The notes: a model not told the origin generated them from the letters alone. Numbered from the stretch's first letter, positions 1,967-57,051 are shown. The stretch is DNA of 64,000 nucleotides from Candidatus Coprovivens sp. (GCA_051886175.1 JBJEXV010000029.1:27029-91028); one strand, 5' to 3'. Numbers and translations are program-made.

Positions 1967-2161
1967 ATGTATGATAATATAGATATAGATAGTGATATAT
2001 TTAAAGAAGTTAAAGATATTATGTTAGACAATGATGATGAAGATATTATTAATAATTTAGAGATTAATGTAACTAAGTTAATTGAAGTATTAAAAGATAC
2101 TGATATGAAATTAGAAGAATATAATGATAATGGTTATAGAGAAAGAATAAGTGTGATCTAA
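1967..2161 (+). CDS. hypothetical small acidic protein
   Basis: 64-aa ORF with GGAG 8 nt upstream of the ATG. Its stop overlaps the next start (TAATG). No family recognised. Confidence 0.4.
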   Translation: MYDNIDIDSDIFKEVKDIMLDNDDEDIINNLEINVTKLIEVLKDTDMKLEEYNDNGYRERISVI

Positions 2162-2376
2162 TGAGTAATAAAGATAAGATACAGATTATTAATAGATATC
2201 AAGGTATGATTAATAGTAAAGTAGCAGTATTATTAAATAAGAGTAAGAAGATAAAAGAATCTATTAATGATGAAGATGAGTTAAATAGATTAAATGAAAT
2301 TATTGATAATTTAAAGTTACATGAAGCTAATGTAATTAAGTTATTAAATAAGTATTGTAGTAAATTAGAAAAGTAA
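2161..2376 (+). CDS. hypothetical small coiled-coil protein
   Basis: 71-aa ORF translationally coupled to 1967-2161. No family recognised. Confidence 0.4.
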   Translation: MSNKDKIQIINRYQGMINSKVAVLLNKSKKIKESINDEDELNRLNEIIDNLKLHEANVIKLLNKYCSKLEK

Positions 2377-2395: not shown

Positions 2396-3436
2396 TTAAT
2401 TAAGCATTAGTTTTACTGTACTATTTTCTTTTATATAAGTATCGGGAGATGGTTCTTGGTAGATTATTTTATCTCCTGTTCCTGATATTTCTATTTTATA
2501 TCCTTTTAGGGTATTTTTAGCTTCTTTTAGGCTCATACCAATGACATTTGGTAATTTTTGATATTTTATATCTAACCAAGTATATGTTCTTGGAGTAACT
2601 TCTTTTGTAGGTTTTAAGTCTTTTATACTTATGATGCTTTTAATTATGTTTTTTGCTATAGGAGCGGAGACTGTTCCACCGTATTGAGTTATTCCTTTGG
2701 GATTATCTATTGCTACATATACAATGTATTCTGGTTTGTTTGCTGGGAGAAAGCCAATGAAGGAAACTATGTAATTACCACTCATATATTTGCCATCTTT
2801 TACTTTTTGAGCTGTACCAGTCTTCCCTCCTACTCTATAGTTTTCAACATAAGCGTTTTTACCTGTACCTTGAGATACAACTGATTCTAATGTTTCTCTT
2901 ACTAAAGAAGATGTTTCTTCGCTGATTACTTGTCTTACTTTGGTAGGTTTATTTTCTAAGATAAGATTATTGGTATTTGGTTCAGTTATATATTTAACTG
3001 TATAAGGTTTATAAAGTGTACCACCATTGATTGCTGCAGATACACCGTTTACTTGTTGAATTGGCGTTACGCTTATTCCTTGACCAAAACTGATAGTTGC
3101 TTGTTCTACTGGTCCAATGTTTTCGTATTTGAACATTATCCCTTTTGCTTCACCATTCAAGTCGATGCCTGTTTTTTCTGTCATACCGAATTTTTCTACG
3201 TATTCGTATAGTTTTTGTTTACCAAGCTTTTGCCCCATTACGACGAATCCTGGGTTGCAAGAGTTTTGGACTACTTGGAGAAATGTTTGGGAACCATGGC
3301 CGCCTTTTTTCCAACATTTAATTTTTGCTCCTTCAACATTTATTGAACCGCTATCATGATAATGATCTTCAAAGACATTTATTACTTTTTCTTCTAGTGC
3401 TGCACTTAGTGTAATTATTTTGAACGTACCTACCAT
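2396..3436 (-). CDS. spoVD: C-terminal fragment of SpoVD-type class B penicillin-binding protein (transpeptidase core after SxxK, plus one PASTA domain)
   Basis: Contains CWKKGGHGSQTFLQVVQNSCNPGF (SxN), YRVGGKTGTAQKVKDGKY (KTG) and a PASTA-like tail. It starts MVGTFK|IITLSAALEE, where the first codons come from the element arm, and no RBS precedes the ATG. It continues the 7623-8522 fragment. Confidence 0.85.
   Translation of the reverse strand: MVGTFKIITLSAALEEKVINVFEDHYHDSGSINVEGAKIKCWKKGGHGSQTFLQVVQNSCNPGFVVMGQKLGKQKLYEYVEKFGMTEKTGIDLNGEAKGIMFKYENIGPVEQATISFGQGISVTPIQQVNGVSAAINGGTLYKPYTVKYITEPNTNNLILENKPTKVRQVISEETSSLVRETLESVVSQGTGKNAYVENYRVGGKTGTAQKVKDGKYMSGNYIVSFIGFLPANKPEYIVYVAIDNPKGITQYGGTVSAPIAKNIIKSIISIKDLKPTKEVTPRTYTWLDIKYQKLPNVIGMSLKEAKNTLKGYKIEISGTGDKIIYQEPSPDTYIKENSTVKLMLN
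3422..3436. repeat. terminal inverted repeat (element arm at 3' junction)
   Basis: GAACGTACCTACCAT on the plus strand matches the reverse complement of 7627-7641 (GAACGTGAATACCAT) at 12 of 15 positions. Confidence 0.8.
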
Positions 3437-3448
3437 TTGGTGATTAGC

Positions 3449-3481
3449 AAATAAAAAAGGAATGTATTAATTACATTCCTT
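3449..3481 (-). terminator. rho-independent terminator at the inner edge of the element
   Basis: Stem AAGGAATGTA / TACATTCCTT with a 5-nt loop, followed by a T-run in minus sense. It overlaps the stop codon of the ArsC-family gene. Confidence 0.5.
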
Positions 3482-3823
3482 AATTGTATTCCATTCTGTT
3501 TCTTTGAATCCTATTAAAACTATATCATCTAATTCTAATAAAGGTCTTTTTACAAGCATACCATCTGTACTTAAAATTTGTAATTTTTCTTCATATGACA
3601 TAGTTTGAATTTTATCTTTGAGTTTTAATTCTCTATATTTTAATCCACTGGTATTAAAAAATCTATTAATGTCTTTTCCTGATTTTTGAATCAATCTATG
3701 TAATTCTTTTTGATTTAATTTTTCTTCAACAATATTTCTAGTTTCAAAAGCAATTTTTTTTGAAACTAAATAATTTTTTGCTTTTTGACATGTACTACAC
3801 TTAGGATATTCAATTAACAACAT
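3467..3823 (-). CDS. ArsC/Spx/MgsR-family thioredoxin-fold protein
   Basis: 118 aa with an N-terminal CxxC (YPKCSTCQKAK) and the family-typical LVKRP...IGF core. Confidence 0.8.
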   Translation of the reverse strand: MLLIEYPKCSTCQKAKNYLVSKKIAFETRNIVEEKLNQKELHRLIQKSGKDINRFFNTSGLKYRELKLKDKIQTMSYEEKLQILSTDGMLVKRPLLELDDIVLIGFKETEWNTIKECN

Positions 3824-3846
3824 ATTTTTAATCCTTTCAAATAAAA

Positions 3847-4262
3847 TTAATATTCAACTAATTCAAAAGATTCTTTACCAACACCACATATAGGACACTT
3901 AAAATCATCAGGGAATTCATCAGCTTCGTGGATATATCCACAAGTATTTTCTAAAACAGGTATTTCTGAAATTTCTTTAAAATCGATTCCATCAAATTTA
4001 TCAGTATCCTTACTCGATTTATATCCAAATGTTCCTATAATCTTTGCATCAGTTGTTTCTTTTAATATTTAAACTCCAAACTTATTATTTTCTTTAATTA
4101 CTTTATTAGTATAATTATCATGGTTTATACTAACTGCAATCACAGAAGGATTTGAAGTAACTTGCATAATACTATTTGCAATACAACCAATATTTTTATC
4201 TTTATCTCTGCTTGTTACAACATAAACGCCATAAGATAGATTTCTTAAGACTTTCTTATCCG
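3847..4262 (-). pseudogene. flavin reductase-like domain fused to C-terminal rubredoxin (high-molecular-weight rubredoxin type), disrupted
   Basis: Minus-strand translation gives KKVLRNLSYGVYVVTSRDKDKNIGCIANSIMQVTS...NNKFGV*ILKETT...DDFKCPICGVGKESFELVEY. There is an in-frame TAA at 4069-4071, where homologs usually have Ser (FGVS), and no canonical start codon. It is absent from the ORF track. Confidence 0.7.
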
Positions 4263-4265
4263 CAA

Positions 4266-5009
4266 TTAGCTTCTTGCTGCACCATCAACAGATAAAATAA
4301 CTCCTGTTATATAACTTGCCATATCACTTGCTAAAAATAAAAATGCATTTGCTATATCTTCTGGAGTACCAATTCTACCTAAAGGAATTCCTTTAATAAT
4401 AGGTTCTATAACACTATCAGGAACATCTTTCATCATATCAGTTAATGTTACTCCAGGTGCTACAGCATTAACTCTTATATTATCTTTACCTAATTCTCTA
4501 GCTAATGATTTTGTAAGACCATTTACTGCAAATTTACTTGCTGGATACCCACATCCTGATGGTTGACCATAAATACTTACCATTGAAGAAGTATTTAATA
4601 TTACTCCACCACCATTTTTCTTCATATATTCTACAACTGCACGAGAACAATTAAATACAGCATTTACGTTTAAGTCCATAATCTTCTTAAAATCTTCTTC
4701 TTTATAATCATAAATCTTATCCATTGAACTCATTCCTGCATTATTAACTAGGATATCAATTTTTCCATACTTTTCTACAATTTGTTTAAATGTTTTTTCA
4801 ACTGAAGCTAAATCACTTAAATTTGGATAATCTCCATCTACTTCGTAATTTTCATTTATAGTTTTAAGCTTATCAATTGCTTTATCAACGCTTTCTTTTT
4901 TAGAGCCTAGTAAAATTACTTTTGCTCCATTTTCTAAAAATTTTTCTACCGTAGCAAAACCAATACCACGAGTACCTCCTGTTACTACAGCAACTTTTCC
5001 TTCTAACAT
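4266..5009 (-). CDS. short-chain dehydrogenase/reductase (FabG-like)
   Basis: TGGTRGIG cofactor motif, NNAG, and the catalytic S...YxxxK (YPASK). Confidence 0.9.
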   Translation of the reverse strand: MLEGKVAVVTGGTRGIGFATVEKFLENGAKVILLGSKKESVDKAIDKLKTINENYEVDGDYPNLSDLASVEKTFKQIVEKYGKIDILVNNAGMSSMDKIYDYKEEDFKKIMDLNVNAVFNCSRAVVEYMKKNGGGVILNTSSMVSIYGQPSGCGYPASKFAVNGLTKSLARELGKDNIRVNAVAPGVTLTDMMKDVPDSVIEPIIKGIPLGRIGTPEDIANAFLFLASDMASYITGVILSVDGAARS

Positions 5010-5060
5010 ATTATCCCTCCTATAATAAATACTAACTATAAAATTATATATTTTTTAAAT

Positions 5061-5426
5061 CTATTCAACTTCTTTTGCCCATAAAGAATGCTTATTACAA
5101 TATGAGTATATTGTTGCTCCTTTTACATATTTAAATGTTGCAATTGGCTCATCACCTGGAGCAAAATAAACTATTTGCTCATTTTTATCATCTACGTAAC
5201 TAATCCATTCTATATAATGATCTTCGTCCATAACGTGATTAACTCTTACATTAATATTTTCGCCATCAATTTGATATTCTGGTACATGCTTCTCAAATGA
5301 AGCATCTACACTATTAGGTTTTATATTTTCAAGTGGCTCACCACAACATGTAATTCCACAAGTATCACAATTGCAATCTTTCAATACTTTTAAAAGTGCT
5401 CCACACTTATTACATCTTTTTAACAT
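5061..5426 (-). CDS. dfx: desulfoferrodoxin (2Fe superoxide reductase)
   Basis: N-terminal desulforedoxin-type CxxC...CC (CNKCG...CCGEP) and a C-terminal SOR centre (EKHVP, H..H, CNKHSLW). I moved the start to the ATG at 5424-5426, which follows AAGGAGGAAAG. A TATAAT box lies at 5449-5454 in minus sense. Confidence 0.85.
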   Translation of the reverse strand: MLKRCNKCGALLKVLKDCNCDTCGITCCGEPLENIKPNSVDASFEKHVPEYQIDGENINVRVNHVMDEDHYIEWISYVDDKNEQIVYFAPGDEPIATFKYVKGATIYSYCNKHSLWAKEVE

Positions 5427-5495
5427 ATCTTTCCTCCTTATAAATATATTATACAATAATTTTAAAAAACAAAAAAGAAAAAAGAAAAAATATAA

Positions 5496-7229
5496 TTAGA
5501 TATTTTTAAAATAAACATTGTATGTAAATCTATTTGGATTATCTATCGCTCTTTTAATCTCGATAGTATCGCAAGTTTGATTTTCTAAATATAAGATATC
5601 ATCAGAAGTAACTCCACCTATATGTCTAGCACCTTTAATTTTTGGTAATTCATTACCTAATAGATTCAAATATATATCTAGTTTTATATTGTATCTATCA
5701 TCATCTATTTTTGATACAATAATTTCATCAACAAACTTTCTTATAAAATCTTCCAAAGAACCACCACTAATTTCTTCTTGAATAGATTTCGTAATATTTT
5801 CAATATTACTATCTCTTTCATTTAATATACTTATCTGTTCTAAAATCTTTAATTTCTTCTTACTTAGTTCTTTAATTGTACTCTCGAAGTTAGCAAATTG
5901 CGCTTTGAGTTCATCTTTTTTAAGCTCGCCAGAAAGAACCAAATCAAGTGCCAATGATTTCTTTTCTTCAATAATTTTCAGTTGTTTATCTATTTCGTTT
6001 AATTCATCATCATACTTATTAGATTTATCTATACTCTCATATATTCTTAACATATTATCTATAATATGATTCTTTTTTGGAATAATAGTATCCATTATTT
6101 TCATGAATATATTGTATAAATCCTTCTCACCAATAATAGGTGAACTACACGAACTAAGTCTATATTGTAAGTATAATCCGCAACTCCAAGTTGGTCTATT
6201 TTTCTTTTTACTACCATGTGACCTTTGAAAGTTAGTATTATGTTCCTTACAATAGATTTTAGAACTAAAGGGATACTTAACTCCACCGGACCAATAGTTA
6301 TTGTCTTTATAGCCTTTGACTCTAGCATTTAATACTTCATTTGCTTTGTCCCATAATTCTTCAGAAACAATCGCTGGAACACTGCCATCAATACACTTAT
6401 ATATAACTTGATTTTCTATAGTATTTTTCTTTCTTTTCTTGGTCCTATAATCTAAAATTTCATATTGTTTAGCTCTATAAAATCCTTTGTACTTTGGATT
6501 TTGTATCATTCCTTTAAGAGAATCTTTATCATATATTCTTCCATTTTTATTTAGATACCCCTCTTGTGAAAGCTTCACTGCTAGTTTATGAAAGCCATAT
6601 TCACCAGTAGCATATAATTCAAATATTCTTCTCACCATTTTGGCTTCTTCTTCGATAATAACTAATTTGCAATTATCTTTTCTATAACCAGTTATATTAG
6701 AGGAACCAAGTACATGTCCTTGACTAATCGCCTTACGATATCCAAACTTAACACTTGCTGAAATTTTCTTAGATTCTTCTTGTGCGATATTAAATAATAT
6801 ATTAAGAGTAAGTTCTGAGTTTAGATCAAATGTATTAAGTGACTGATTTTCAAAGAACACCCCAACTCCAGATGATTTTAATTCTCTAATATAGTGAATA
6901 CTGTCCTCTAAGTCACGAGCAAACCTTGAAACATCCTTTGTAATAATTAAATCAAATTTGTTGAGTTTAGCATCTCTTATCATTCGCATAAATGATAGTC
7001 TTTTATCTGCTCGTGTTCCCGTAACACCTTCTTCAATATATCCATCTACGAAAGACCATGTTTTATTTTTCTTAATATATGTTTCATAATAATCTAATTG
7101 ATTATCTAATGAATTTAGTTGAACATCGCTATCAGTAGATACTCGGCAATAATAAGTAACCCGTAGTGGAAGATTATAAAGCTTCTCACCACGTGCTATT
7201 GCACTAACTATGTCATAATAGTTCGTATT
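5496..7229 (-). CDS. large serine recombinase (resolvase domain, recombinase domain, zinc ribbon, coiled coil); start codon undefined
   Basis: The ORF-track entry 5496-6989 lacks the catalytic domain. The same frame stays open up to the stop at 7230-7232 and encodes ...LRVTYYCRVSTDSDVQLNSLDNQ...GVTGTRADKRLSF, the nucleophile-serine motif. That stretch contains no ATG, GTG or TTG. Confidence 0.8.
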   Translation of the reverse strand, partial: NTNYYDIVSAIARGEKLYNLPLRVTYYCRVSTDSDVQLNSLDNQLDYYETYIKKNKTWSFVDGYIEEGVTGTRADKRLSFMRMIRDAKLNKFDLIITKDVSRFARDLEDSIHYIRELKSSGVGVFFENQSLNTFDLNSELTLNILFNIAQEESKKISASVKFGYRKAISQGHVLGSSNITGYRKDNCKLVIIEEEAKMVRRIFELYATGEYGFHKLAVKLSQEGYLNKNGRIYDKDSLKGMIQNPKYKGFYRAKQYEILDYRTKKRKKNTIENQVIYKCIDGSVPAIVSEELWDKANEVLNARVKGYKDNNYWSGGVKYPFSSKIYCKEHNTNFQRSHGSKKKNRPTWSCGLYLQYRLSSCSSPIIGEKDLYNIFMKIMDTIIPKKNHIIDNMLRIYESIDKSNKYDDELNEIDKQLKIIEEKKSLALDLVLSGELKKDELKAQFANFESTIKELSKKKLKILEQISILNERDSNIENITKSIQEEISGGSLEDFIRKFVDEIIVSKIDDDRYNIKLDIYLNLLGNELPKIKGARHIGGVTSDDILYLENQTCDTIEIKRAIDNPNRFTYNVYFKNI

Positions 7230-7263
7230 CTACCACCACCTTTGCTATTTATTGTTATAACTT

Positions 7264-7407
7264 TTATATTACTTGTAATTTTTTAATCATTTTCAACAAT
7301 CTTTCATTTGCTTTTGAAAATGTATTTTCATCAATAATGTTCTTTTTGTAAAGGTTGTTATTGATGATAAGTTGTAATTGCAACTCCGTAATTGCATTTA
7401 ATTTCAT
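7264..7407 (-). CDS. hypothetical 47-aa protein directly upstream of the recombinase (candidate accessory/directionality factor)
   Basis: The ATG at 7405-7407 follows AAGGAAAGGA. The product is MKLNAITELQLQLIINNNLYKKNIIDENTFSKANERLLKMIKKLQVI. It falls below the ORF-track length cutoff. Confidence 0.35.
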   Translation of the reverse strand: MKLNAITELQLQLIINNNLYKKNIIDENTFSKANERLLKMIKKLQVI

Positions 7408-7622
7408 ATAATCATCCTTTCCTTATTATTGGATATTATGATAACCCGTAAGTTCATATACCATTTTATAATAGTATTTATGTGCAATAACCCGATTCAG
7501 CATTTCCTGATTTGAATTTATCTAATTTTATATCAATAGTAAATTACTTAGCGTTCTATCAAAATTATTTTCCACTTTATTTTAATGCAAACCATATATT
7601 AAATCCTTATAACATAAGGTCA

Positions 7623-8522
7623 CTATATGGTATTCACGTTCTTAAATGTTGAACCAGGTTCATAACTTTTCCATATTGGTAAGTTTCTATTTATTGTTTC
7701 TAAATCAAATTTTTGATAGTTATTTGAATCAAATGTTGGCCGAGATGCCATAGCAAGTATTTCTCCAGTATTAGGGTCCATAACAATTGCTAAGGATTCT
7801 TCTGGGGTATATTTGGTGTCAACTTGGGATAATTCATTTTCTAAAGCTAATTGGATATCTATATCAATAGTTAAAGTTATATCCATTCCATTTACTGCTG
7901 GTACATACTTTTCTAATTCATTTAATCTATGCCCTTTACCATCTGAGAAGTATTTAATAGACCCGCTGGTACCAGTTAGATATTTATCATACTGCAATTC
8001 TAGTCCAGATAAGCCTTGATTATCTATACCGACATATCCCAATACATGAGATAGTACTGTATCATATGGATAATAACGAACCGATTCTTTCATAAGATAT
8101 AAACCATCTATATTTAGTGCTGCTATTTTATCTGCTATATCACTACTTAATTGTCTTCCTTCAGGATTTATCTTTTCCAAGGAAGTTTTTTTAGTTAGAT
8201 GTTTTAATATACTATCATAACTACAATTAAGAATACTTGATAATGCTTTAGCTGTAAGTTCTTTATCTACGATTTGATTTGGTACGGCGTATAGGGTTGT
8301 TGTAGTTATATTGGTTGCTAATACTTTTCCGTTACGATCTAGTATTCTACCTCTATCTGGTGTTAGAGGTAGATTACGTTCCCATAAATCGTTTGCTAAT
8401 TTAGATAGTTTATTGTTTGATATAGTTTGAAGATAGAATATCTTAAATAATATTACAAACAACACTAATATTGTTACTAATAATACTATTTTAATTCTTT
8501 TTTGTTTTATCTTTTGAAACAT
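7623..8522 (-). CDS. spoVD: N-terminal fragment of SpoVD-type class B PBP (TM anchor, dimerisation domain, up to SxxK)
   Basis: LWERNLPLTPDRGRILDRNGKVLATN and ...WKSYEPGSTFK match my recollection of B. subtilis SpoVD closely. The last five codons (NVNTI) and the stop are element sequence. Confidence 0.85.
   Translation of the reverse strand: MFQKIKQKRIKIVLLVTILVLFVILFKIFYLQTISNNKLSKLANDLWERNLPLTPDRGRILDRNGKVLATNITTTTLYAVPNQIVDKELTAKALSSILNCSYDSILKHLTKKTSLEKINPEGRQLSSDIADKIAALNIDGLYLMKESVRYYPYDTVLSHVLGYVGIDNQGLSGLELQYDKYLTGTSGSIKYFSDGKGHRLNELEKYVPAVNGMDITLTIDIDIQLALENELSQVDTKYTPEESLAIVMDPNTGEILAMASRPTFDSNNYQKFDLETINRNLPIWKSYEPGSTFKNVNTI
7627..7641. repeat. terminal inverted repeat (element arm at 5' junction)
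   Basis: ATGGTATTCACGTTC on the plus strand is the inverted partner of 3422-3436. Confidence 0.8.
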
Positions 8523-8544
8523 ATTATCACCTATTAATTTTATG

Positions 8545-8909: not shown

Positions 8910-9848
8910 TTAACATAAAAAGTTCATTATTAAATCAATCATAATTTGTTTTTCTTTTGGATTAGATTGAGCTATTAAAAGTGTTAGAGCAACTAATGTA
9001 TTATTGTCTATTACTCTTTGATTGTCTTTATATAATATTTTGTTATATTCTAAGAAGTAAATGAATAGTGTTGCTCCTATTCTTTTATTACCATCTATAA
9101 ATGTATGATTTTTAATTATTAGGTATAAGAAGTTGGCAGCTTTTTCTTCTATGGTTGGATATAAATCTTCTCCACCAAACGTTTGATAGATTGTGTCTAT
9201 TATTGTTTGAAGACCCTTATTACGTTCTAGAGCAAATAATTTACTTTCGTTATTGAATCTTAATCTATCTATCATTGATAAACATTCTTCATATGTAATT
9301 TTAGTTTGATTTATTGTACCTTTTGGTTTTGATATTTTTTGATGATCATAATCATCTAATAAATCTAATGCGGTTGAGTATTTATCTATTACTTTTATTA
9401 TTTCTTTAGCTTCAGTACTAGATATGTCATCTTCTATTCTTCCTGCTATATTTATCAGTTGAACAGTTTTTTCTAGATACTGCAGTCTCTTTTGATTAAC
9501 AGTATACCCTTTTAGCATATGGTCTTTTAGAATTTGAGTTGCCCATTTTCTGAAAGCAAAACCTCTTTTACTATTTACACGATATCCTACAGATATGATC
9601 ATATCTAGATTATAAAATTGTACGAGATACTTTTTGCCATCTTTCGCAGTATGCTCAAAAAATGAGCATACTGCTTTTTCGTTTAATTCTTTGTCTTTAT
9701 AGATGTTTTGGATATGCCTTGTAATTGTTTTTCTGTCTTTTTCAAATAGTTCGGCCATTTGTTGTTGTGTTAACCATACTGTTTCGTCTTTCATATTTAC
9801 TTCTAATTTAACCCCTTGATTTTCAAATAATATTATTTCGTTTTCCAT
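8910..9848 (-). CDS. RhuM-like N-terminal domain fused to Fic/Doc domain
   Basis: The N-terminal half resembles the RhuM virulence-protein family (VWLTQQQMAELF...ISVGYRVNS). The C-terminal half carries the Doc-type motif HTFIDGNKRIG. Confidence 0.75.
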   Translation of the reverse strand: MENEIILFENQGVKLEVNMKDETVWLTQQQMAELFEKDRKTITRHIQNIYKDKELNEKAVCSFFEHTAKDGKKYLVQFYNLDMIISVGYRVNSKRGFAFRKWATQILKDHMLKGYTVNQKRLQYLEKTVQLINIAGRIEDDISSTEAKEIIKVIDKYSTALDLLDDYDHQKISKPKGTINQTKITYEECLSMIDRLRFNNESKLFALERNKGLQTIIDTIYQTFGGEDLYPTIEEKAANFLYLIIKNHTFIDGNKRIGATLFIYFLEYNKILYKDNQRVIDNNTLVALTLLIAQSNPKEKQIMIDLIMNFLC

Positions 9849-37167: not shown

Positions 37168-39264
37168 TTACGCTGCAGTAATCTCTAATTTAGTTATTTC
37201 AGTTATGTTAGTACCAGCTGGATAGTTATATGCTGTTACACTACCATTACCTTCTATTTTATATTCTATATTAAGTAATTTACATAGCGTTGCAACTTCA
37301 CTTGTTTTCCATCCAGTTATGTCCGGTAATAGATAATTATTACCATTAGTTACAAAGAATACTTTACTACCTGCAACTATTGTTGTGTTTTTAGGTGGGT
37401 ATTGTTTTTTTATATATTTACCATCACCTAAGATAATTGAGTTTAATGATAGTAATTTAGTATTATCTTGTAATGATGTAACATTAGTACTTAAGAAGTT
37501 ATCCATAGTAAGTATTTTAGAATAGTTTATTTCTTCTACTTTAGTTGTTAAGTTTTTATATTTAGCTATTTCTTCTACTACTTTAGATACCATGCTAGCA
37601 ACGTTTTTAAAGCTACCATCATATTGTTTTACTGATACATAAATAATGTATTTAGGATCTTCGTATGGGAAGATACCTGCAAATGAACGAACGTAATCAT
37701 TTGCTCCAGTTAAGTATGTTCCGTTAGGTCCAGTAATTTGGGCTGTACCTGTTTTACCTATTAATGTTACGTTATCTGTTTTAAAGAATTTAGCGTCTGT
37801 TTTACCGCTATATACAACGTCATACATTAAATCTAACATTTTATCAGTATTTTCTTTAGATGCTTTTTGACCTAGTTCTGTTCTTTCATGTTGGTATGAT
37901 ACTACTCCTGTTTCAGAGTTAACTATTTTTTCAATTATATATGGTTGAAGTTCAACGCCATCATTTGTTAGTACTGTTAAGGCTTGTAGGTTTTGAATAG
38001 GTGTTGTTGTAATACCTTGACCGAATGATGCTGTTGCAACTTCAGTACGATAAGTAAAGTCAATATCACCTTTTAGTTCACCAGGTAGTGTAATACCTGT
38101 TTTTTTACCAAATCCTAAATCAGAATAGAAGTTATATAGGTTTTCTCTTCCAATACTTAATGCTAAGTTTGTAGCAGCTGTATTAGATGAGTATGCAAAA
38201 CCTTCATCATATGTTATAACTCCCCAACCTTTTGTGTTAAAGTCTTTGATTGTTGCATCATCAACTTGGATAGTACCTGATTGATATTTTGCGCTACCAT
38301 TATATTTACCATTTTCCATAGCAGCCAGGAATGAGAATATTTTCATTGTACTACCTGGTTCATATGAATATGAAGTTAATGGATTTAAGTATGATTCAAT
38401 ATTAAGTTCATTTAAGTTAAATGTTGGATTTGATCCAGTTGCTACTATTGCTCCTGTATCAGCATCCATTACTGAGAATGTTAACCAAGCCATATTGTTG
38501 TCTTTTGATACTTCAGCAATACCATCTTGGACAAACATTTGGATACGTGAATCAATTGTTAAATAGATATCTTCTCCTTGTTCTGCTTCTTCTATAATTG
38601 GATTTGTATTAGGTATAGTATAACCATATGGATCTTTTTGATATGTTTTAGAACCATCTTTACCTTCTAATATCTCTTGGTAAAATGCTTCTATACCCAT
38701 TTTGCCTTCTATTTTACCTTCGTCATTAGTTTGAGCAAAACCAATTACATATGGAGCTAAACTACCCATTGGATATGTTCTTTTAGCTGTTGCTACAAAG
38801 TCGATACCTGGTAATTCTAATGCTTCTATTTCTTTTTTTTCTATTTCAGTTATATTTCTTTTTAAATTAATTTGGTATAGGTCTTTTCCAAGTAAGTTCA
38901 TTAATTGTTCAACTGTAATACCTAATACAGGTGATAGTTTTTCAGCAGTCATTTGTTTATTCACTACATGGTGAGGATGATCTGGATTGTTTGTTCTTCC
39001 TTCATCTAAGTAAGCTATTACTGTATAAGATTTAATTGATAGAGCTAATGCTTCACCATCACCAGAATAGATTGTTCCTCTTTCTGCTTCTATAACTTGT
39101 TTACCTGTATTACGGTTTTTAACAAAGTCAGTTAAGTTAATACCATTAGTTTCTTTGGATAATGCTACTATTAAAGTTTTACCTGAAATCATAAAAAAAG
39201 AAATAATTAAAACAAAGAATATAATTTTACTAATATTAATTGTTTTTTGATTATTTCTTTTCAT
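37168..39264 (-). CDS. pbpB: division-type class B PBP with two PASTA domains
   Basis: SxxK GSTMK, SSN and KTGTAQ motifs. It lies directly after ftsL in the mraZ operon. Confidence 0.9.
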   Translation of the reverse strand: MKRNNQKTINISKIIFFVLIISFFMISGKTLIVALSKETNGINLTDFVKNRNTGKQVIEAERGTIYSGDGEALALSIKSYTVIAYLDEGRTNNPDHPHHVVNKQMTAEKLSPVLGITVEQLMNLLGKDLYQINLKRNITEIEKKEIEALELPGIDFVATAKRTYPMGSLAPYVIGFAQTNDEGKIEGKMGIEAFYQEILEGKDGSKTYQKDPYGYTIPNTNPIIEEAEQGEDIYLTIDSRIQMFVQDGIAEVSKDNNMAWLTFSVMDADTGAIVATGSNPTFNLNELNIESYLNPLTSYSYEPGSTMKIFSFLAAMENGKYNGSAKYQSGTIQVDDATIKDFNTKGWGVITYDEGFAYSSNTAATNLALSIGRENLYNFYSDLGFGKKTGITLPGELKGDIDFTYRTEVATASFGQGITTTPIQNLQALTVLTNDGVELQPYIIEKIVNSETGVVSYQHERTELGQKASKENTDKMLDLMYDVVYSGKTDAKFFKTDNVTLIGKTGTAQITGPNGTYLTGANDYVRSFAGIFPYEDPKYIIYVSVKQYDGSFKNVASMVSKVVEEIAKYKNLTTKVEEINYSKILTMDNFLSTNVTSLQDNTKLLSLNSIILGDGKYIKKQYPPKNTTIVAGSKVFFVTNGNNYLLPDITGWKTSEVATLCKLLNIEYKIEGNGSVTAYNYPAGTNITEITKLEITAA

Positions 39265-39276
39265 AGCAATTACTCC

Positions 39277-39591
39277 TTAATTATCTTTTACAACGATGAT
39301 GTTTTCATTATTGTATTGTAAACCATCTTCTTGAGCAACTAATTGAATTTTATCTAATGAAGCAAGTTCATATATTTCAGTTCTTAAACTATCATTAGTA
39401 TTTTGTTGCCTTTCAACATCATTTTTAGCTTCTTCTAATTCTATATTAGTTTCTGATAGTATAGCTTTAGTATAAACGTTTGCGACAGGAATTGCAAATA
39501 TAATTAATAAAATTATAATCCAATATGTCTTTTCTTGTTCAAACATTTTTTTCTTTTTCTTTGTACGATTCTTGCTTCCCATTGTGATCAC
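39277..39591 (-). CDS. ftsL: cell division protein FtsL
   Basis: Small bitopic protein with a coiled coil, positioned between rsmH and pbpB. Its start overlaps the rsmH stop (ATGA). Confidence 0.6.
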   Translation of the reverse strand: MITMGSKNRTKKKKKMFEQEKTYWIIILLIIFAIPVANVYTKAILSETNIELEEAKNDVERQQNTNDSLRTEIYELASLDKIQLVAQEDGLQYNNENIIVVKDN

Positions 39592-40511
39592 AATCTTTCT
39601 ATTATTCTTAGTTTTGCGCTCTTACTTCTTGAGTTTTCTTTTAATTCTTCAGGAGTTGGAAGAATTGGTTTTTTATTTATTAATTTTATTTTTGGTTTGT
39701 ATTTATCAGGTATTACTGGTAAACCTTTAACCAATTCATCAATTTCACTTTCTTTTTTAAATAATTGTTTAACTATTCTATCCTCTAAGGAATGGAATGT
39801 TATTACTGACATACGACCTGTTTCGTTAAGTAATTCTATAGCATCAGGAAGTACTTTTTTAAGTACTGTAAGTTCACTATTTACTTCAATTCTTACTGCT
39901 TGAAAGATTTGTCTTTCCGGATGTTGTTTGTTGAAGTATTTAGCTCCTACTGCATTTTCAATGATATTAACTAATTCTTTAGTTGTTTTTATCGGTTTGT
40001 TTTGTCTTTCATTAACTATCTTTTTAGCAATTACTTTAGACATCTTTTCTTCACCGTATATAAAGAATATATCAGTTAATTGGTCATATGTATAAGTATT
40101 TATTACTGTTTCGGCAGTTAGTTTACATGATCTGTCCATTCTCATATCTAGTGGAGCATCATTCATGAAAGTAAAGCCTCTTTCAGCATTGTCGATTTGT
40201 GGACTTGATAATCCTAAATCAAATAGTATGCCATCTACTTTAGTAACTCCTAATTCAGCTAATTTTTCTTTCATATTAGCGAAGTTACTATGGATTATTG
40301 TGAAGTTATCATTTATCTTTGATAATCTTTCATTTGCATACTCTATTGCTTCTTCATCTTGATCAAACGAATATAGATGACCAGTAGTCAAAGTTTTTAG
40401 TATTTCACTACTATGTCCTCCGTATCCTAATGTACCATCTATATATATTCCATCAGGTTTGATGTTTAAGCCATCTATTGATTCTGTTAGCATTACGCTA
40501 TAATGTTTCAT
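39588..40511 (-). CDS. rsmH: 16S rRNA m4C1402 methyltransferase
   Basis: HYSVMLTESIDGL, DGTLGYGGHS and FDLGLSSPQ motifs. I moved the start to the ATG at 40509-40511, 7 nt after GGAGGAG. Confidence 0.95.
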   Translation of the reverse strand: MKHYSVMLTESIDGLNIKPDGIYIDGTLGYGGHSSEILKTLTTGHLYSFDQDEEAIEYANERLSKINDNFTIIHSNFANMKEKLAELGVTKVDGILFDLGLSSPQIDNAERGFTFMNDAPLDMRMDRSCKLTAETVINTYTYDQLTDIFFIYGEEKMSKVIAKKIVNERQNKPIKTTKELVNIIENAVGAKYFNKQHPERQIFQAVRIEVNSELTVLKKVLPDAIELLNETGRMSVITFHSLEDRIVKQLFKKESEIDELVKGLPVIPDKYKPKIKLINKKPILPTPEELKENSRSKSAKLRIIERL

Positions 40512-40944
40512 TAGAATCTCCTCCATTGAATAAATTTTCAGCAATATCTTCTAATACATTTTCGTTATCAATTGAGTTTTGTATCCAATTTTCTTCTGAC
40601 CATATTTCTAGTCGGTCGTTAGCGCCGATAATAACACATTTTGTGATGATACCGGCGTAACTAACCAATGGGGAGGTAATGTTGATTCGACCTTGGCGAT
40701 CGAAATCACATTCAGTGGCACCAGAAAAGAAGGATCTCGTGAACGTACGGACGTCTTTTTTGGTAAAAGGTAGAGTTTTTAATTTGGCAACTATATTATT
40801 CCATTCGGATTCAGAATATACGTAGAGACATTTTTCTAAACCGCGAACAAGAACAAATCTTTCTCCAAGCTCTTGGCGGAACTTGGCTGGAATTATTAGT
40901 CGTCCTTTTTCATCAATGTTATGATGAAATTCGCCCATGAACAT
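40498..40944 (-). CDS. mraZ: transcriptional regulator MraZ
   Basis: MFMGEFHHNIDEKGRLIIPAKFR and a second DRQGRINI repeat. I moved the start to MFMGE. Confidence 0.95.
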   Translation of the reverse strand: MFMGEFHHNIDEKGRLIIPAKFRQELGERFVLVRGLEKCLYVYSESEWNNIVAKLKTLPFTKKDVRTFTRSFFSGATECDFDRQGRINITSPLVSYAGIITKCVIIGANDRLEIWSEENWIQNSIDNENVLEDIAENLFNGGDSNETL

Positions 40945-40950
40945 AAAATC

Positions 40951-40980
40951 CCCCACTTTCCTCCACAATGTACCACTGTC
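40951..40980 (-). promoter_or_regulatory. three direct GTGG repeats at exact 10-bp spacing (candidate MraZ operator)
   Basis: The minus sense reads CAGTGGTACA TTGTGGAGGA AAGTGGGGGA. On the plus strand the repeats appear as CCAC at 40953-40956, 40963-40966 and 40973-40976. They lie between the -10 box and the mraZ ATG, and the last one overlaps the RBS. Confidence 0.6.
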
Positions 40981-40987
40981 TATAATA

Positions 40988-41016
40988 AATATACTTGAAT
41001 TCCCCACCTTTGTAAA
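40988..41016 (-). promoter_or_regulatory. sigma-A type promoter of the mraZ operon
   Basis: TTTACA, a 17-nt spacer, then TATATT in minus sense. Confidence 0.5.
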
Positions 41017-46634: not shown

Positions 46635-48560
46635 TTAATCCGTTCCTATTGTATCATATATTTTGAAATTTTCAAACATTAACTTGCTTACTTCTTTTGA
46701 AATATATCGATTTATTGGTGATATATAGTTATTATTTCCATCATTATACGAACTATTTGGGCTTACTACAACGATAGAATATGCTGGATTATCATATGGA
46801 GCATACATAGCATAGGTTTGATTTATAGTATTTATATCTTTGTTATAGTAGACTTCGGCAGTACCTGTTTTACCTGCTGGTTTGTATTTAGTATCGGTAT
46901 ATCCCCTACCGGTTCCGTTATGTACTACTTCTTTAAAACCTTGTTGGATTCTTGAAAAGTAACCGGTATCTTCGATAGTATTAAGTAAGTTATTTTTGTA
47001 TGTATAAATAGTTTTATCATTATTCTTTACTTCTTTTAAGTAATGTAAGGAATATCTTTTACCTGATGTAGATATGGTATTAATGTAACTAGTTAGTTGT
47101 AATGGTGTGTATGTATCATATTGACCTATTGATAGATTTAGTAATAAATCATCAGCTATAGTTGTACCTGTAATACCATATGTTTCTTTTTCTAAGTCGA
47201 TACCTGTTGAGGTACCTAAACCAAATTGTTTAAATGTATTGCGATATGTATCAAAGTGTTCTTTTGTTGCATTAATACTCATATTATTTTTATATTTATT
47301 ACCTGTTAGTTTTATAGCAGTAATAAATTGGAAATAGTTACTTGATGTTTTTAAAGCTTCAATATCGTTAATGTAACCTAGCTTTTTATGAGAACATTTC
47401 ATTGGTACTTGGTATAGTTTAACACATGAATCTAATATTTTTTTATCATATTCAATTAAGTTATTTTGATAACCTACAGTATGAGATGCTCCTTTTATTA
47501 CTGATCCAACTGTATATGATGTTGTAAATACATTAGTGGGATTGTAATGTATTTCATTATTTATTATGGAAATACCTGTACTAGCTATAATACTACCATC
47601 ATTTGGGTTACTTACTATTACATATGACGAATTATAATATTTAGTATTTTGATATTTATCTTTGTTTGATAAGTTTTTTATTATTATGTTATCTATTTCG
47701 TTTTGTATATTGATATCTAGTGTTAGATATAAATCGTTACCTGGTATTTCTTTTGTTAGTAATGTAAGGGAGTTATCTTTATTAACTTGATATGTAGCTG
47801 GTGTTCCTTTTAAGTATTGGTCATATTCTTTTTCTAAATAACTTAGACCAACTGTATCATTTAAGGAATAACCTAGTGAGAGATAATAGTCTTTATTTTC
47901 TTTTGTTATTTTACCAGTTGTACCAATAAGTTGTTTTACGGAATCGAAAAGTATTTTTCTTGTAGTAGTGTATTCACAAGTTAAACCTGGTTGATTTAAG
48001 GAATTGATATCTGCACATTCTTGATCTGATACATTTTCTTTTAATATTTTATTATCATATGAATAACCGGTATTCATTAAGTTATAAATAGTAATTATTT
48101 TTTTATCATCTTCAGTATAGTTTAATTTATCTTCTTGGATACGTGATAGTATTAATTCTTCTATTTCTTTTTTAGTTAGTTTACGATATTTAATTTGTTT
48201 TAGTTCGTTAGCAGTAAGAAGATAATCGGTATTGTTATTATTCATGTAATGTTCTTTTTGTTCTTCTAATGTAGCTGGTTCAAATAATAATATATTATTT
48301 ATTTTAGTTGCTATTTCATAATTATCATTATCTTTTATATGACGATATATGATTGTATTTGTACCAATGTTATCTACTAAAAGAACGCCATTACGGTCGT
48401 AGATACGACCTCTTGGCGAGGATGGTCCTTTAATTATTTTATTTGTTAAGGTAAGGTATTTATTTAAAGATTCTTTATGTTTTATGTAATATAAGTCGAT
48501 GTATCTAATTGAGATTATTGTTATTAGGACAAATAATGTAAAGTAATATATTTTTTTCAT
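46635..48560 (-). CDS. class B PBP, elongation type (no PASTA)
   Basis: SVIK (SxxK), SSN and KTGTAE motifs. I moved the start to MKKIYYF, which follows AGGTGA. Confidence 0.85.
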
Positions 48561-48623
48561 AAAATCACCTATTATTAGTATCTTAATTTTTATAAATATC
48601 ATACAATTAAGTGGGTGATAAAA

Positions 48624-57008: not shown

Positions 57009-57013
57009 AAAAA

Positions 57014-57051
57014 ATATCACCATAGTTAGTTTAATATACTTATGGTGATAT
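57014..57051 (-). terminator. 11-bp stem hairpin plus T-run downstream of tkt
   Basis: Stem ATATCACCATA / TATGGTGATAT with a 16-nt loop. In minus sense it is followed by TTTTTT and then immediately by the ATG at 57008. The only RBS-like GGTGAT lies in the 3' arm. Confidence 0.5.

What the first reader, a model, noticed from the sequence alone, without database searches (positions are those of the whole stretch)
2396..8522. SpoVD-type PBP gene split inside the Lys codon of its SxxK active-site motif by a 4.2-kb serine-recombinase element; both att junctions are readable
Seen directly, in gene sense on the minus strand. The 5' junction reads GAA CCT GGT TCA ACA TTT AA|G AAC GTG AAT ACC ATA TAG. 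The 3' junction reads CAA ATG GTA GGT ACG TTC AA|A ATA ATT ACA CTA AGT. Joining the outer flanks at the shared AA gives GGT TCA ACA TTT AAA ATA ATT ACA. This is in frame and yields ...YEPGSTFKIITLSAALEE..., a 634-aa protein (294 + 340 residues) colinear with my recollection of B. subtilis SpoVD. Joining the inner ends gives ATGGTAGGTACGTTC-AA-GAACGTGAATACCAT. That is an imperfect palindrome (12 of 15 arm positions) around a central dinucleotide, the expected architecture of a large-serine-recombinase attP. The C-terminal fragment has no RBS, so it is unlikely to be an independent gene. The locus sits directly upstream of mraY, in the Bacillus spoVD position, and a SirA-like gene elsewhere in the window suggests a spore-former. 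By analogy with skin (sigK) and similar intervening elements, I infer that the element is excised in the mother cell to rebuild spoVD. I do not recall spoVD among the classical interrupted sporulation genes.
Basis: partly seen in the sequence, partly recalled or inferred. Interest (0 to 1): 0.9.

Follow-up and report, generated by a model that had tools for sequence, protein, structure and literature searches.

The report
Recombinase element splitting sporulation gene spoVD
A 4.2-kb mobile element carrying a serine recombinase sits exactly inside the active-site lysine codon of the spore-cortex enzyme gene spoVD in an uncultured gut bacterium. It belongs to a widespread, previously undescribed family that most likely cuts itself out during spore formation to rebuild the gene.

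Summary
Window 3420-7641 is a 4222-bp element flanked by an AA crossover dinucleotide. Removing it joins 7642-8522 and 2396-3419 (minus strand) into a 634-aa protein that passes NCBI's SpoVD equivalog model. A related strain carries the predicted empty site. The element encodes a complete large serine recombinase preceded by a conserved 47-aa ORF (excision-factor candidate), plus redox cargo.

This is not a one-off. Recombinase relatives interrupt spoVD at the same codon in at least 57 species-level genomes of uncultured gut Bacilli (RF39-type). Two further sites, the Asn codon of SxN and a TPIQ motif, are each used by their own recombinase clade, with up to three elements in one gene. In-silico excision restores an intact ORF in 23 of 23 complete cases. 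More distant relatives sit in sigK and in a D,D-carboxypeptidase gene.

Mother-cell excision is therefore the best explanation, but it is inferred: no circle junction was found. This copy also has an ATG-to-ACG recombinase start, a deleted promoter -10 box and a decayed cargo gene, so it may be impaired. I found no paper reporting spoVD as an interrupted gene.

The parts
7642..8522 (-). spoVD 5' part: codons 1-293 plus the first two bases (AA) of the Lys294 codon of S291-T-F-K294. As it stands, the ORF runs on to a stop at 7623 (299 aa, ending ...STFKNVNTI).
   Evidence: Pfam PBP_dimer and the start of Transpeptidase.
8537..8544 (-). CATAAAAT box 13 nt upstream of the spoVD start codon, just before the GGTGA ribosome-binding site. 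It is a mother-cell sigma-E/K-type -10 look-alike.
   Evidence: Read. A CATAnnnT box in the -60 to -15 window, almost always directly before the RBS, occurs in 29 of 44 spoVD upstream regions of related genomes, against 75 of 690 control genes.
7620..7665 (-). attL junction: host GGTTCAACATTTAA | element GAACGTGAATACCATATAG. Crossover AA at 7643-7642.
3420..7641 (-). The intervening element, 4222 bp counting one copy of the AA. GC is 27.6% against 28.0% for the window.
   Evidence: Collinear at 78-93% nt identity with elements in six other genomes.
7431..7461 (-). Remnant of the promoter region of the small ORF: GTATATG-N14-CATAATAT. About 34 nt that carry the conserved -10 box (CATAAGAT or CATACGAT) in relatives are deleted here, at about 7431/7432.
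7264..7407 (-). 47-aa ORF (MKLNAITELQLQLIINNNLYKKNIIDENTFSKANERLLKMIKKLQVI). Candidate recombination directionality factor.
   Evidence: A homologue lies directly upstream of the recombinase in nearly all of about 75 related loci, in all recombinase clades. No Pfam or NCBIfam match.
5496..7226 (-). Large serine recombinase gene. Catalytic motif YYCRVSTDSD. The start codon is ACG (7226-7224) where homologues have ATG. A strong RBS, AAAGGTGGTGG, lies upstream.
   Evidence: Pfam Resolvase 95 bits, Recombinase 70, Zn_ribbon_recom 28. PHROG 95 integrase. Start-codon comparison.
5061..5426 (-). Cargo: desulfoferrodoxin/superoxide-reductase-like gene (121 aa).
   Evidence: Pfam PF01880. TIGR00320 79.7 bits, below its cutoff.
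4266..5009 (-). Cargo: short-chain dehydrogenase/reductase (247 aa).
3847..4262 (-). Cargo pseudogene: remnant of a flavin-reductase/rubredoxin fusion. It is 215 aa and intact in L005, L008, L024 and L034. Here it has lost its start, has an internal stop and lacks about 215 nt.
3467..3823 (-). Cargo: ArsC/Spx-family protein (118 aa).
   Evidence: TIGR01617 98.6 bits against a cutoff of 75.
3457..3481 (-). Terminator-like hairpin with a T-run at the right end of the element, just before attR.
   Evidence: The same TTCCTTTTTTATTTG end is conserved in related elements.
3398..3445 (-). attR junction: element AAATGGTAGGTACGTTCAA | host AATAATTACACTAAG. Crossover AA at 3421-3420.
2396..3419 (-). spoVD 3' part: third base of the Lys294 codon, codons 295-634 and the stop. 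Contains SxN (S347-C-N349), KTG and one PASTA domain.

Best explanation
The 4.2-kb insert is a small, non-phage integrative element. It belongs to a family whose large serine recombinases use the AA inside the catalytic-lysine codon of spoVD as their crossover site.

Shown: the integration anatomy, the recombinase, the conserved small ORF, the empty site in a related strain, and the recurrence of the same insertion across many species.

Inferred: when the cell sporulates, the mother-cell sigma factor (sigma-E type) transcribes spoVD and the small-ORF/recombinase module. That module is driven either from its own sigma-E-like promoter or by read-through from the spoVD promoter, since it lies co-directionally just downstream. 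The 47-aa protein then acts as a recombination directionality factor and lets the recombinase join attL and attR. The element leaves as a circle, and an intact spoVD is rebuilt in the terminally differentiated mother cell, where SpoVD makes spore cortex. The forespore chromosome keeps the element, so it is inherited.

The element also moves horizontally between species and carries a small oxidative-stress cassette. The copy in this window has a mutated recombinase start codon, a deleted promoter -10 box and a decayed cargo gene. It may therefore excise poorly or not at all.
For: (1) The joined gene is a SpoVD equivalog: 708.8 bits against a cutoff of 688. It is the only one of three class-B PBPs in the window to pass; the other two best match the PBP2X and PBP2B models, though far below those models' cutoffs.
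(2) The intact allele L115 has exactly the predicted attB, with the same downstream genes.
(3) A scan of one genome per species with the recombinase returned 80 loci. 57 full-length recombinases (58 with the window) flank spoVD pieces broken at K294, always at TTYAA|, from two recombinase clades that are only 47% identical.
(4) 23 of 23 loci that hold all pieces give an intact ORF after in-silico excision: 629-637 aa where the match starts at codon 1, 601-611 aa where it starts near residue 27. Three of these carry two insertions.
(5) On the window's own branch, spoVD shows 8 conservative non-synonymous against 47 synonymous changes. dN/dS against L115 is 0.04.
(6) The recombinases are under purifying selection. 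For L046/L049, dN is 0.019 and dS is 0.16.
(7) The 47-aa ORF is conserved directly upstream of the recombinase in all clades. Known directionality factors of such elements are similarly small and unannotated: GirX is 42 aa (PMC5595907) and CD1234 is 72 aa and sigma-E dependent (PMC5025042).
(8) TCATAWT-N14-CATAMGAT, which matches the sigma-E consensus as I recall it, is conserved before the small ORF in 12 of the 15 related elements whose recombinase is at least 75% identical to the window's. The background rate is 1.2% per 130-nt window. Clade B has CATACACT.
(9) Among the spoVD-flanked loci, every recombinase except L026's is co-oriented with spoVD.
(10) More distant relatives (37-43% identity) sit in sigK, the classical skin situation, and at the SxxK lysine of a D,D-carboxypeptidase gene.
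(11) Sporulation context in the same strain: SirA and YlbD in the window; a SigG-like sigma factor next to YlmC/YmxH just beyond the window; a SEDS protein whose best model is SpoVE downstream of mraY. RF39 bacteria are predicted spore-formers (PMC10868615).
Against: No excision product was seen. The attP junction pattern had 0 hits in metagenome and viral contigs, while 15 contigs in the same collection carried attR junctions. The exact repaired 634-aa protein is absent from a collection of about 15 billion proteins.

Across species, synonymous divergence of the recombinases is far lower than that of spoVD (for example 0.16 against 1.0). Insertions are therefore younger than the host species, and intact reading frames alone do not prove long-term selection on the split state.

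This copy has ACG in place of the recombinase ATG, confirmed in three independent assemblies. It has lost the conserved -10 box and has a dead cargo gene.

Confidence: 0.6

Rival explanations
1. Plain insertional knockout. The element is a selfish integrative element that uses the highly conserved SxxK-coding sequence only because it is a reliable, non-essential landing site. It never excises developmentally. Carriers simply lack SpoVD and are asporogenous or make spores without it, and the split gene is a young pseudogene.
For: No attP junction and no repaired allele was found. The elements are younger than the host species and spread horizontally, so intact halves could reflect recent arrival. 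This copy has a non-ATG recombinase start, a deleted -10 box and a decayed cargo gene. A published survey scored spoVD as reduced or absent in RF39 (PMC10868615). Two other class-B PBPs can cover vegetative growth.
Against: 0 of 23 reconstructed genes are broken, although recombinase dS between species reaches 0.16-0.6. The window branch of spoVD has dN/dS near 0.05 with only conservative changes. Sigma-E-like promoters precede a conserved small ORF. Up to three elements stack in one gene without any decay. Relatives of the recombinase occupy sigK, where developmental excision is established in other bacteria. The 'missing spoVD' in RF39 is as well explained by annotation failing on split genes.
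Confidence: 0.25
2. A reversible population switch rather than a mother-cell event. The element excises and re-integrates at low frequency in growing cells, as in active lysogeny at Listeria comK. This would create spoVD-ON and spoVD-OFF subpopulations, or serve mainly the element's own horizontal transfer.
For: Strains with and without the element exist at 97-98% SpoVD identity. Identical element ends abut many different host alleles, showing frequent mobility. In C. difficile the skin recombinase itself is expressed constitutively (PMC5025042).
Against: The promoters conserved before the small ORF look sigma-E-type, not housekeeping. The target is a gene needed only in the mother cell. Large serine recombinases integrate unidirectionally unless a directionality factor is made (established knowledge of serine integrases; PMC3783163).
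Confidence: 0.1
3. Assembly or binning artefact that joins unrelated DNA inside a PBP gene.
For: The window comes from a metagenome-assembled genome.
Against: The identical attL arrangement is present in four independent assemblies and attR in two. The same junctions occur in dozens of other genomes and in metagenome contigs. The breakpoints are base-exact and restore the frame.
Confidence: 0.01

Closest known systems
skin element in sigK (Bacillus subtilis SpoIVCA; Clostridioides difficile CD1231 with directionality factor CD1234)
   Same: A large-serine-recombinase element interrupts the ORF of a mother-cell sporulation gene, and precise excision rebuilds the gene. In C. difficile a small sigma-E-dependent directionality factor confines excision to the mother cell (PMC5025042). 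A 39%-identical relative of the window recombinase sits directly against a SigK fragment (L083).
   Different: The target is spoVD, not sigK. The element is 4.2 kb with no phage remnants, whereas skin is about 14.6 kb in C. difficile and 48 kb in B. subtilis (sizes from my own knowledge). The candidate factor lies immediately upstream of the recombinase. The host is an uncultured RF39-type bacterium. Excision has not been demonstrated.
gin element in gerE of Bacillus cereus ATCC 10987 (GirC/GirX)
   Same: A non-prophage intervening element. A serine recombinase plus a tiny unannotated directionality factor (GirX, 42 aa) are necessary and sufficient. It spreads horizontally between strains (PMC5595907).
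   Different: gin is 28.6 kb with three recombinases, a restriction-modification system and recJ. The spoVD elements are 2.7-7 kb with one recombinase. They hit catalytic-motif codons and can stack up to three per gene.
SP-beta in spsM, vfbin in spoVFB, yin in yabG
   Same: Mobile elements inside sporulation genes that are excised, or proposed to be excised, during sporulation. Together with sigK and gerE, the genes these elements interrupt made up the list of interrupted sporulation genes given in a 2023 paper (PMC10747680).
   Different: They interrupt different genes and are mostly prophage or prophage-like and much larger. spoVD is not on any published list I could find.
Heterocyst DNA elements of cyanobacteria (nifD, fdxN, hupL; XisA, XisF, XisC)
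   Same: Developmentally excised elements in genes needed only in a terminally differentiated cell. Several elements can interrupt one operon or gene. XisF is a serine recombinase, and the window recombinase has a weak NCBIfam match to it (53 bits against a cutoff of 375).
   Different: A different phylum and a different developmental programme. There is no close sequence relationship.
Site-specific large serine recombinases targeting conserved coding sequences (survey of Durrant et al. 2022, PMC10083194)
   Same: Diverse recombinase clusters converge on one conserved site inside a gene. The crossover is a 2-bp core, and attP is an imperfect palindrome.
   Different: That survey highlights Mg-chelatase/comM-like, prolyl isomerase and competence genes. 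PBP or spoVD targets are not mentioned in its main text.

Membership tests
Large serine recombinase (serine integrase) | N-terminal resolvase catalytic domain with a serine nucleophile | tested here: met
   Pfam PF00239 at 95.1 bits. Motif YYCRVSTDSD is invariant in 9 homologues.
Large serine recombinase (serine integrase) | Recombinase domain plus zinc-ribbon domain in the C-terminal part | tested here: met
   PF07508 at 69.8 bits and PF13408 at 28.1 bits, both above their cutoffs. PHROG 95 integrase, E = 6e-99.
Large serine recombinase (serine integrase) | attP of about 40-50 bp as an imperfect palindrome around a 2-bp crossover; attL and attR are hybrid sites without a long duplication | tested here: met
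   17 of 22 arm positions are symmetric around AA, by my own count from the sequence. Clade B attP is 17 of 23, also my own count from the junctions. Only AA is shared at the junctions.
Large serine recombinase (serine integrase) | Intact, translatable gene | tested here: inconclusive
   The frame is open for 577 codons, but the start codon is ACG where all listed homologues have ATG, except L016 with ATA.
Sporulation-gene intervening element (skin / SP-beta / vfbin / gin class) | [quoted passage not shown] | tested here: met
   TIGR02214 spoVD_pbp at 708.8 bits against 688. A CATAnnnT box is enriched before spoVD genes of the clade. That expression is mother-cell specific is inferred from B. 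subtilis knowledge.
Sporulation-gene intervening element (skin / SP-beta / vfbin / gin class) | Precise excision restores an intact ORF | tested here: met
   In silico only. The window gives 634 aa, and 23 of 23 loci are intact. The natural empty site is identical to the prediction.
Sporulation-gene intervening element (skin / SP-beta / vfbin / gin class) | Element-encoded directionality factor under mother-cell control | tested here: inconclusive
   A conserved 47-aa ORF has sigma-E-like promoters in relatives. Its function is untested, and the -10 box is deleted in the window copy.
Sporulation-gene intervening element (skin / SP-beta / vfbin / gin class) | Excision actually occurs during sporulation (attB and attP junctions appear) | tested here: inconclusive
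   0 attP hits in the metagenome and viral contig collections, against 15 attR junctions. The repaired protein is not in the protein collection. Assemblies report only the majority state, so this is weak negative evidence. Read-level data were not available.
Sporulation-gene intervening element (skin / SP-beta / vfbin / gin class) | Host is an endospore former | tested here: inconclusive
   SirA and YlbD_coat pass Pfam cutoffs. YlmC/YmxH passes its cutoff, next to a SigG-like sigma factor that scores below cutoff. The best model for the downstream SEDS protein is SpoVE, also below cutoff. RF39 is predicted to sporulate (PMC10868615). The whole genome could not be inspected.
SpoVD (sporulation-specific class B PBP) | PBP_dimer + transpeptidase + a single PASTA domain, with SxxK, SxN and KTG motifs | tested here: met
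   Pfam hits. The motifs STFK, SCN and KTG are read in the joined sequence.
SpoVD (sporulation-specific class B PBP) | Distinct from the vegetative division and elongation PBPs of the same genome | tested here: met
   Two further class-B PBPs, at 37168-39264 (after mraZ-rsmH-ftsL, best model PBP2X) and at 46635-48602 (best model PBP2B), score 316 and 84 bits on the SpoVD model, far below its cutoff.
Prophage or phage satellite | Phage structural, replication or packaging genes | tested here: not met
   Only the integrase has a significant PHROG match; the small ORF matches only weakly (E about 0.01) to a family of unknown function. The cargo genes, scanned against Pfam and NCBIfam rather than PHROGs, are redox enzymes. 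The best phage integrase match is 41% identical.

The most novel reading that the evidence does not exclude
In a large clade of uncultured gut Bacilli (RF39 and neighbours), spoVD is a modular gene. It is assembled in the mother cell by up to three independent site-specific excisions, at the Lys codon of SxxK, the Asn codon of SxN and the TPIQ motif. Each excision is carried out by its own recombinase clade paired with a cognate small directionality factor under sigma-E control. The elements are horizontally mobile cassettes that ride through the spore germline. They belong to one recombinase superfamily that has repeatedly switched targets among sporulation and peptidoglycan genes (spoVD, a D,D-carboxypeptidase gene, sigK). 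The reported 'loss' of spoVD in RF39 genomes would then be largely an annotation artefact of these splits.
Probability: 0.45. Interest if true: 0.8.

Novelty: new member of a known kind. Interest (0 to 1): 0.72.

Why it matters
Interrupted sporulation genes are a short list (sigK, spsM, spoVFB, gerE, yabG), and each addition has been treated as a discovery.

- spoVD would be a new entry, and the first in the uncultured RF39-type gut lineages.
- These are among the most compact such elements, down to 2.7 kb: essentially a recombinase plus a 47-aa ORF.
- It would be the first case I know of where several elements stack inside one sporulation gene, each at a catalytic-motif codon.
- It offers natural sets of orthogonal serine integrases with defined attB and attP sites and candidate directionality factors.
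- It gives a concrete explanation for 'missing' spoVD calls in genome-based sporulation predictions for RF39.
- It gives a sequence marker (the attB and attP junctions) for detecting sporulation of uncultured gut bacteria directly in metagenomic reads.

Tried and rejected
- **attP circle junction.** I searched for AATGGTAGGTACGTTYAARAACGT in metagenome contigs and IMG/VR and found nothing. A control with the 18-nt element end found 15 attR junctions and no attP. Contigs show only the majority state, so this is uninformative rather than negative.
- **Exact repaired protein.** An exact look-up of the 634-aa protein found it absent.
- **Co-divergence test.** I wanted to show long-term residence of elements in their hosts. 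It failed: recombinase dS is far below spoVD dS and the correlation is r = 0.16, so the elements move horizontally. I therefore dropped the 'ancient vertical inheritance' argument.
- **Same-sample intact alleles.** The intact alleles P0121 and P0125 come from other studies, so they do not show excision in the same sample.
- **Annotation of the 47-aa ORF.** PHROGs, Pfam and NCBIfam gave nothing meaningful.
- **Second attB in the window.** None within 3 mismatches.
- **Prophage and transposon readings.** I rejected the prophage reading: the element carries no phage genes. I also rejected a transposon or IS reading: there are no terminal inverted repeats or target duplication beyond the 2-bp crossover, and the enzyme is a serine integrase.
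- **Not attempted.** Co-folding of the recombinase with the small ORF was not tried, because the structure tool takes single chains from the window only.


Full report
**1. The observation**

- The 5' junction is GAACCTGGTTCAACATTTAA|GAACGTGAATACCATATAG, with the AA at 7643-7642.
- The 3' junction is CAAATGGTAGGTACGTTCAA|AATAATTACACTAAGT, with the AA at 3421-3420.
- The two AA copies are 4222 bp apart.

Joining 7642..8522 to 2396..3419 gives 1905 nt in frame. This codes for 634 aa with ...YEPGSTFKIITLSAALEE.... The split falls after the second base of the Lys294 codon of S291-T-F-K294.

The inner ends joined at AA form an imperfect palindrome: 12 of 15 positions as stated, and 17 of 22 when extended.

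The C-terminal ORF starts at an ATG inside the element (3436) with no purine-rich RBS in front. The element's GC (27.6%) is the same as the window's (28.0%).

**2. What the parts are**

*The joined gene.* The joined protein scores 708.8 bits on NCBIfam TIGR02214, 'stage V sporulation protein D', an equivalog model with a cutoff of 688. It has PBP_dimer, Transpeptidase and one PASTA domain.

*Other PBPs.* The window holds two more class-B PBPs.
- One lies at 37168-39264, behind mraZ-rsmH-ftsL. Its best model is PBP2X.
- One lies at 46635-48602. Its best model is PBP2B.
- Both fall far below the SpoVD cutoff.

The split gene is therefore the only SpoVD-type PBP, and division and elongation enzymes are encoded elsewhere.

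*Downstream genes.* Two small opposite-strand ORFs come first, then a true mraY (TIGR00445, 308 bits against 192). In the same strain these are followed by a Peptidase_S11 carboxypeptidase, an unknown gene, and a SEDS protein. The best model for the SEDS protein is SpoVE (405-412 bits, cutoff 449).

*Element genes, all on the spoVD strand.*
- A 47-aa ORF (7264-7407) with no family match.
- A desulfoferrodoxin-like gene.
- A short-chain dehydrogenase.
- A remnant of a flavin-reductase/rubredoxin fusion.
- An ArsC/Spx-family gene.
- A terminator-like hairpin just before attR.

Only the integrase has a significant PHROG match. The small ORF has only a weak match (E about 0.01) to a family of unknown function.

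**3. Origin and sporulation context**

The recombinase is 100% identical to an NCBI protein from a 'Candidatus Coprovivens sp.' MAG. That genus is GTDB order RF39, family CAG-1000 (PMC8035907).

A genome survey predicts that RF39 forms spores. It has spoIIGA, spoIIM, spoIIP, spoIIQ and others. [quoted passage not shown]

In the window, SirA (29.7 bits against 26) and YlbD_coat (56.6 against 27) pass Pfam cutoffs.

About 1.5 kb beyond the window's right end, in the same strain, lies a sigma factor whose best models are SigG (306 bits, below the 372 cutoff). It is followed by a YlmC/YmxH sporulation protein (72 bits against 44).

A sporulation programme is therefore likely, but not proven for this genome.

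**4. Empty sites**

The repaired protein has many 634-aa relatives at 94-98% identity.

One of them, L115, has the same downstream gene order. It reads GGTTCAACATTTAAAATAATTACACTAAG at the site, exactly the predicted attB. Another intact allele, P0121, comes from three further samples. The insertion is thus polymorphic among close relatives.

**5. The same insertion elsewhere**

I scanned one genome per species (GTDB) with an alignment of recombinase homologues. This returned 80 loci.

*Breakpoints.* tblastn with the repaired SpoVD shows spoVD pieces flanking the recombinase in 67 of the 80 loci. The junctions are base-exact:
- host ...TTYAA | element on the left;
- element ...TTYAA | AAT.AT.AC host on the right.

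*Recombinase clades.* The recombinases at this site fall into two clusters that are only 47% identical to each other.
- Clade A includes the window. Its recombinase usually lies near the left end of the element, though some members have it at the right end.
- In clade B the recombinase lies at the right end.
- Each clade has its own palindromic attP arms.

Clade B attP is symmetric at 17 of 23 positions by my own count from the junctions.

*Orientation and size.* All recombinases but one (L026) are co-oriented with spoVD. Element sizes run from 2.7 kb (L035) to more than 10 kb.

*Close relatives of the window's element.* Six other genomes carry collinear elements at 78-93% nt identity with the same cargo.

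*Horizontal spread.* In metagenome contigs, essentially identical element ends abut at least seven different host spoVD alleles. Between species, recombinase dS is far smaller than spoVD dS, for example 0.16 against 1.0 for L046/L049. The elements therefore spread horizontally. The recombinases themselves are under purifying selection (dN/dS about 0.12).

**6. Two more sites in the same gene**

In 24 loci the gene is broken again inside the Asn349 codon of the SxN motif (TCT TGY AA|). In 7 loci it is broken at the TP(I/L)Q415 motif.

Each of these sites has its own recombinase cluster, 38-41% identical to the window enzyme. Each of those recombinases is again preceded by a homologue of the 47-aa ORF.

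Roughly 40% of genomes with the K294 insertion also carry the N349 one. L056 shows all three.

**7. Integrity of the split genes**

In every locus where all pieces lie on the contig, in-silico excision at the crossover gives an uninterrupted ORF. That is 22 other species-level genomes plus the window, three of them with two insertions. The ORFs are 629-637 aa where the match starts at codon 1, and 601-611 aa where it starts near residue 27.

With L115 as outgroup and L122 as sister, the window's branch carries 8 conservative non-synonymous and 47 synonymous changes. dN/dS against L115 is 0.04. Nothing suggests decay of the split gene.

**8. Regulatory signals**

*Before spoVD.* A CATAnnnT box lies in the -60 to -15 window, almost always directly in front of the RBS. 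It is present in 29 of 44 clade members, including the window (CATAAAAT at 8544-8537). The control rate is 75 of 690 genes. The invariant CATA matches the -10 of mother-cell sigma factors, by the sigma-E and sigma-K consensus I recall from the B. subtilis literature.

*Before the 47-aa ORF.* Among the 15 related elements whose recombinase is at least 75% identical to the window's, 12 have TCATAWT-N14-CATAMGAT at the same aligned position. The background rate is 1.2% per 130-nt window. Clade B has CATACACT.

*Compact elements.* Here the small ORF begins only about 65 nt after the junction. Read-through from the spoVD promoter is then the simplest source of transcription.

*Precedent.* In C. difficile skin, the sigma-E/SpoIIID-dependent small factor CD1234 (72 aa, no database similarity) is what confines excision to the mother cell (PMC5025042). 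GirX of gin is 42 aa (PMC5595907).

**9. Wider family**

More distant relatives from the same scan (37-43% identity) are found next to other sporulation or peptidoglycan genes.
- L083: a C-terminal SigK fragment, a skin-type situation.
- L071-L074: a D,D-carboxypeptidase fragment that begins at the Lys of its own SxxK. The junction reads ...GG|AAAATTATGACT, the same AA|AAT.AT.AC half-site as in spoVD.
- L080 and L084: a SigF/G-like C-terminal tail.

The window recombinase thus belongs to a superfamily associated with sporulation-gene interruptions.

**10. Peculiarities of the window's copy**

- The recombinase start codon is ACG where homologues have ATG. The window reads GGTGGTGGTAGAAT-ACG-AAC and relatives read ...ATT-ATG-AAC. 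The same base is seen in three independent Logan assemblies. NCBI's annotation resorts to an ATA start five codons downstream.
- About 34 nt carrying the conserved -10 box before the small ORF are deleted. What remains is a weaker look-alike, GTATATG-N14-CATAATAT.
- The flavin-reductase/rubredoxin cargo gene, intact (215 aa) in L005, L008, L024 and L034, is a pseudogene here.
- The att sites and the rest of the recombinase frame are intact.

This copy looks like one that is starting to decay. Whether it still excises cannot be decided from sequence.

**11. Direct evidence for excision: sought, not found**

- The attP pattern gave 0 hits in metagenome contigs and in IMG/VR.
- The control pattern gave 15 attR junctions and no attP.
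- The exact repaired protein is not in the protein collection.

Because assemblies report the majority state, this is weak negative evidence.

**12. Literature**

No paper in the searchable library combines spoVD with intervening elements, serine recombinases or excision. A 2023 paper lists sigK, spsM, spoVFB and gerE, and adds yabG. The large recombinase survey of Durrant et al. does not mention PBP targets in its main text.

**13. Verdict**

The anatomy is confirmed. The kind of system, a sporulation-gene intervening element excised by a large serine recombinase, is known. The target gene, the host clade, the compact recombinase-plus-small-ORF design, the three motif-codon sites and the stacking of elements appear to be new.

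Developmental excision is the best-supported mechanism for the family (about 0.6) but remains inferred, and it is doubtful for this particular copy.

Noticed in passing
L005-L079 (e.g. L030, L040, L050, L056, L077, L079); site equivalent to window ~3255 (Asn349 codon): In 24 related genomes spoVD is interrupted a second time, inside the Asn codon of the SxN motif (TCT TGY AA|). The elements there carry their own recombinase clade, 38-40% identical to the window's. L056 has three insertions in one gene.
   Followed up: yes
L009, L019, L038, L055, L056, L063, L067; site equivalent to window ~3057 (Gln415 codon): A third insertion site lies in the conserved FGQG.SVTP(I/L)Q motif of spoVD, again with a dedicated recombinase clade (L019, L055).
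   Followed up: partly
L071-L074 (Ca. Faecimonas / Ca. Aphodocola MAGs): A 41%-identical recombinase abuts a D,D-carboxypeptidase (Peptidase S11) fragment that begins at the Lys of its SxxK motif. The host half-site is the same as in spoVD (AA|AAT.AT.AC). This suggests target switching between two penicillin-binding protein families. The N-terminal fragment was not found within 10 kb.
   Followed up: partly
L083; L080 and L084: In L083 a 39%-identical recombinase lies directly before a C-terminal SigK fragment, which is skin-like. In L080 and L084 the recombinase reading frame runs into a 27-40 aa SigF/G-like region-4.2 tail (ISQAQVSRLEK). That would be odd for a forespore sigma factor.
   Followed up: partly
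window 7224-7226: The recombinase start codon is ACG instead of ATG, reproduced in three independent assemblies. L016 has ATA at the same position.
   Followed up: yes
window ~7431-7432: A deletion of about 34 nt, relative to 13 related elements, removes the conserved sigma-E-like -10 box upstream of the 47-aa ORF.
   Followed up: yes
window 3847-4262: The flavin-reductase/rubredoxin fusion gene of the cargo is a pseudogene here but intact (215 aa) in related elements. With the superoxide-reductase-like gene, it makes the cargo look like a mobile oxidative-stress cassette.
   Followed up: partly
window 1967-2376 (+ strand): Two small overlapping ORFs (64 and 71 aa) lie on the opposite strand between spoVD and mraY. 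They are conserved in all related strains (L115-L118, L122-L124) and have no family match. Function unknown; a toxin-antitoxin-like pair is possible.
   Followed up: no
window 8910-9848: A Fic/RhuM-family gene lies upstream of spoVD in this strain. In the strain with the intact allele (L115), the region upstream of spoVD instead holds very large surface-protein genes. The region upstream of spoVD is therefore variable.
   Followed up: no
window 37168-41007 and 46635-48602: The division and cell-wall cluster is dispersed. mraZ-rsmH-ftsL-PBP2X-like lie about 30 kb from spoVD-mraY, and a third class-B PBP (PBP2B-like) sits at 46.6-48.6 kb.
   Followed up: partly
just beyond window end (L119 8493-9523): A SigG-like sigma factor (below the equivalog cutoff) lies next to a YlmC/YmxH sporulation protein, matching the B. 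subtilis sigG-ylmC neighbourhood (gene order recalled, not checked here). SirA-like (56598-57023) and YlbD/YlbE-like (50475-51019) genes lie inside the window.
   Followed up: partly
literature: PMC10868615: The published statement that RF39 genomes show reduced or absent spoVD may be partly an annotation artefact, caused by the gene being split into 2-4 pieces by these elements.
   Followed up: no
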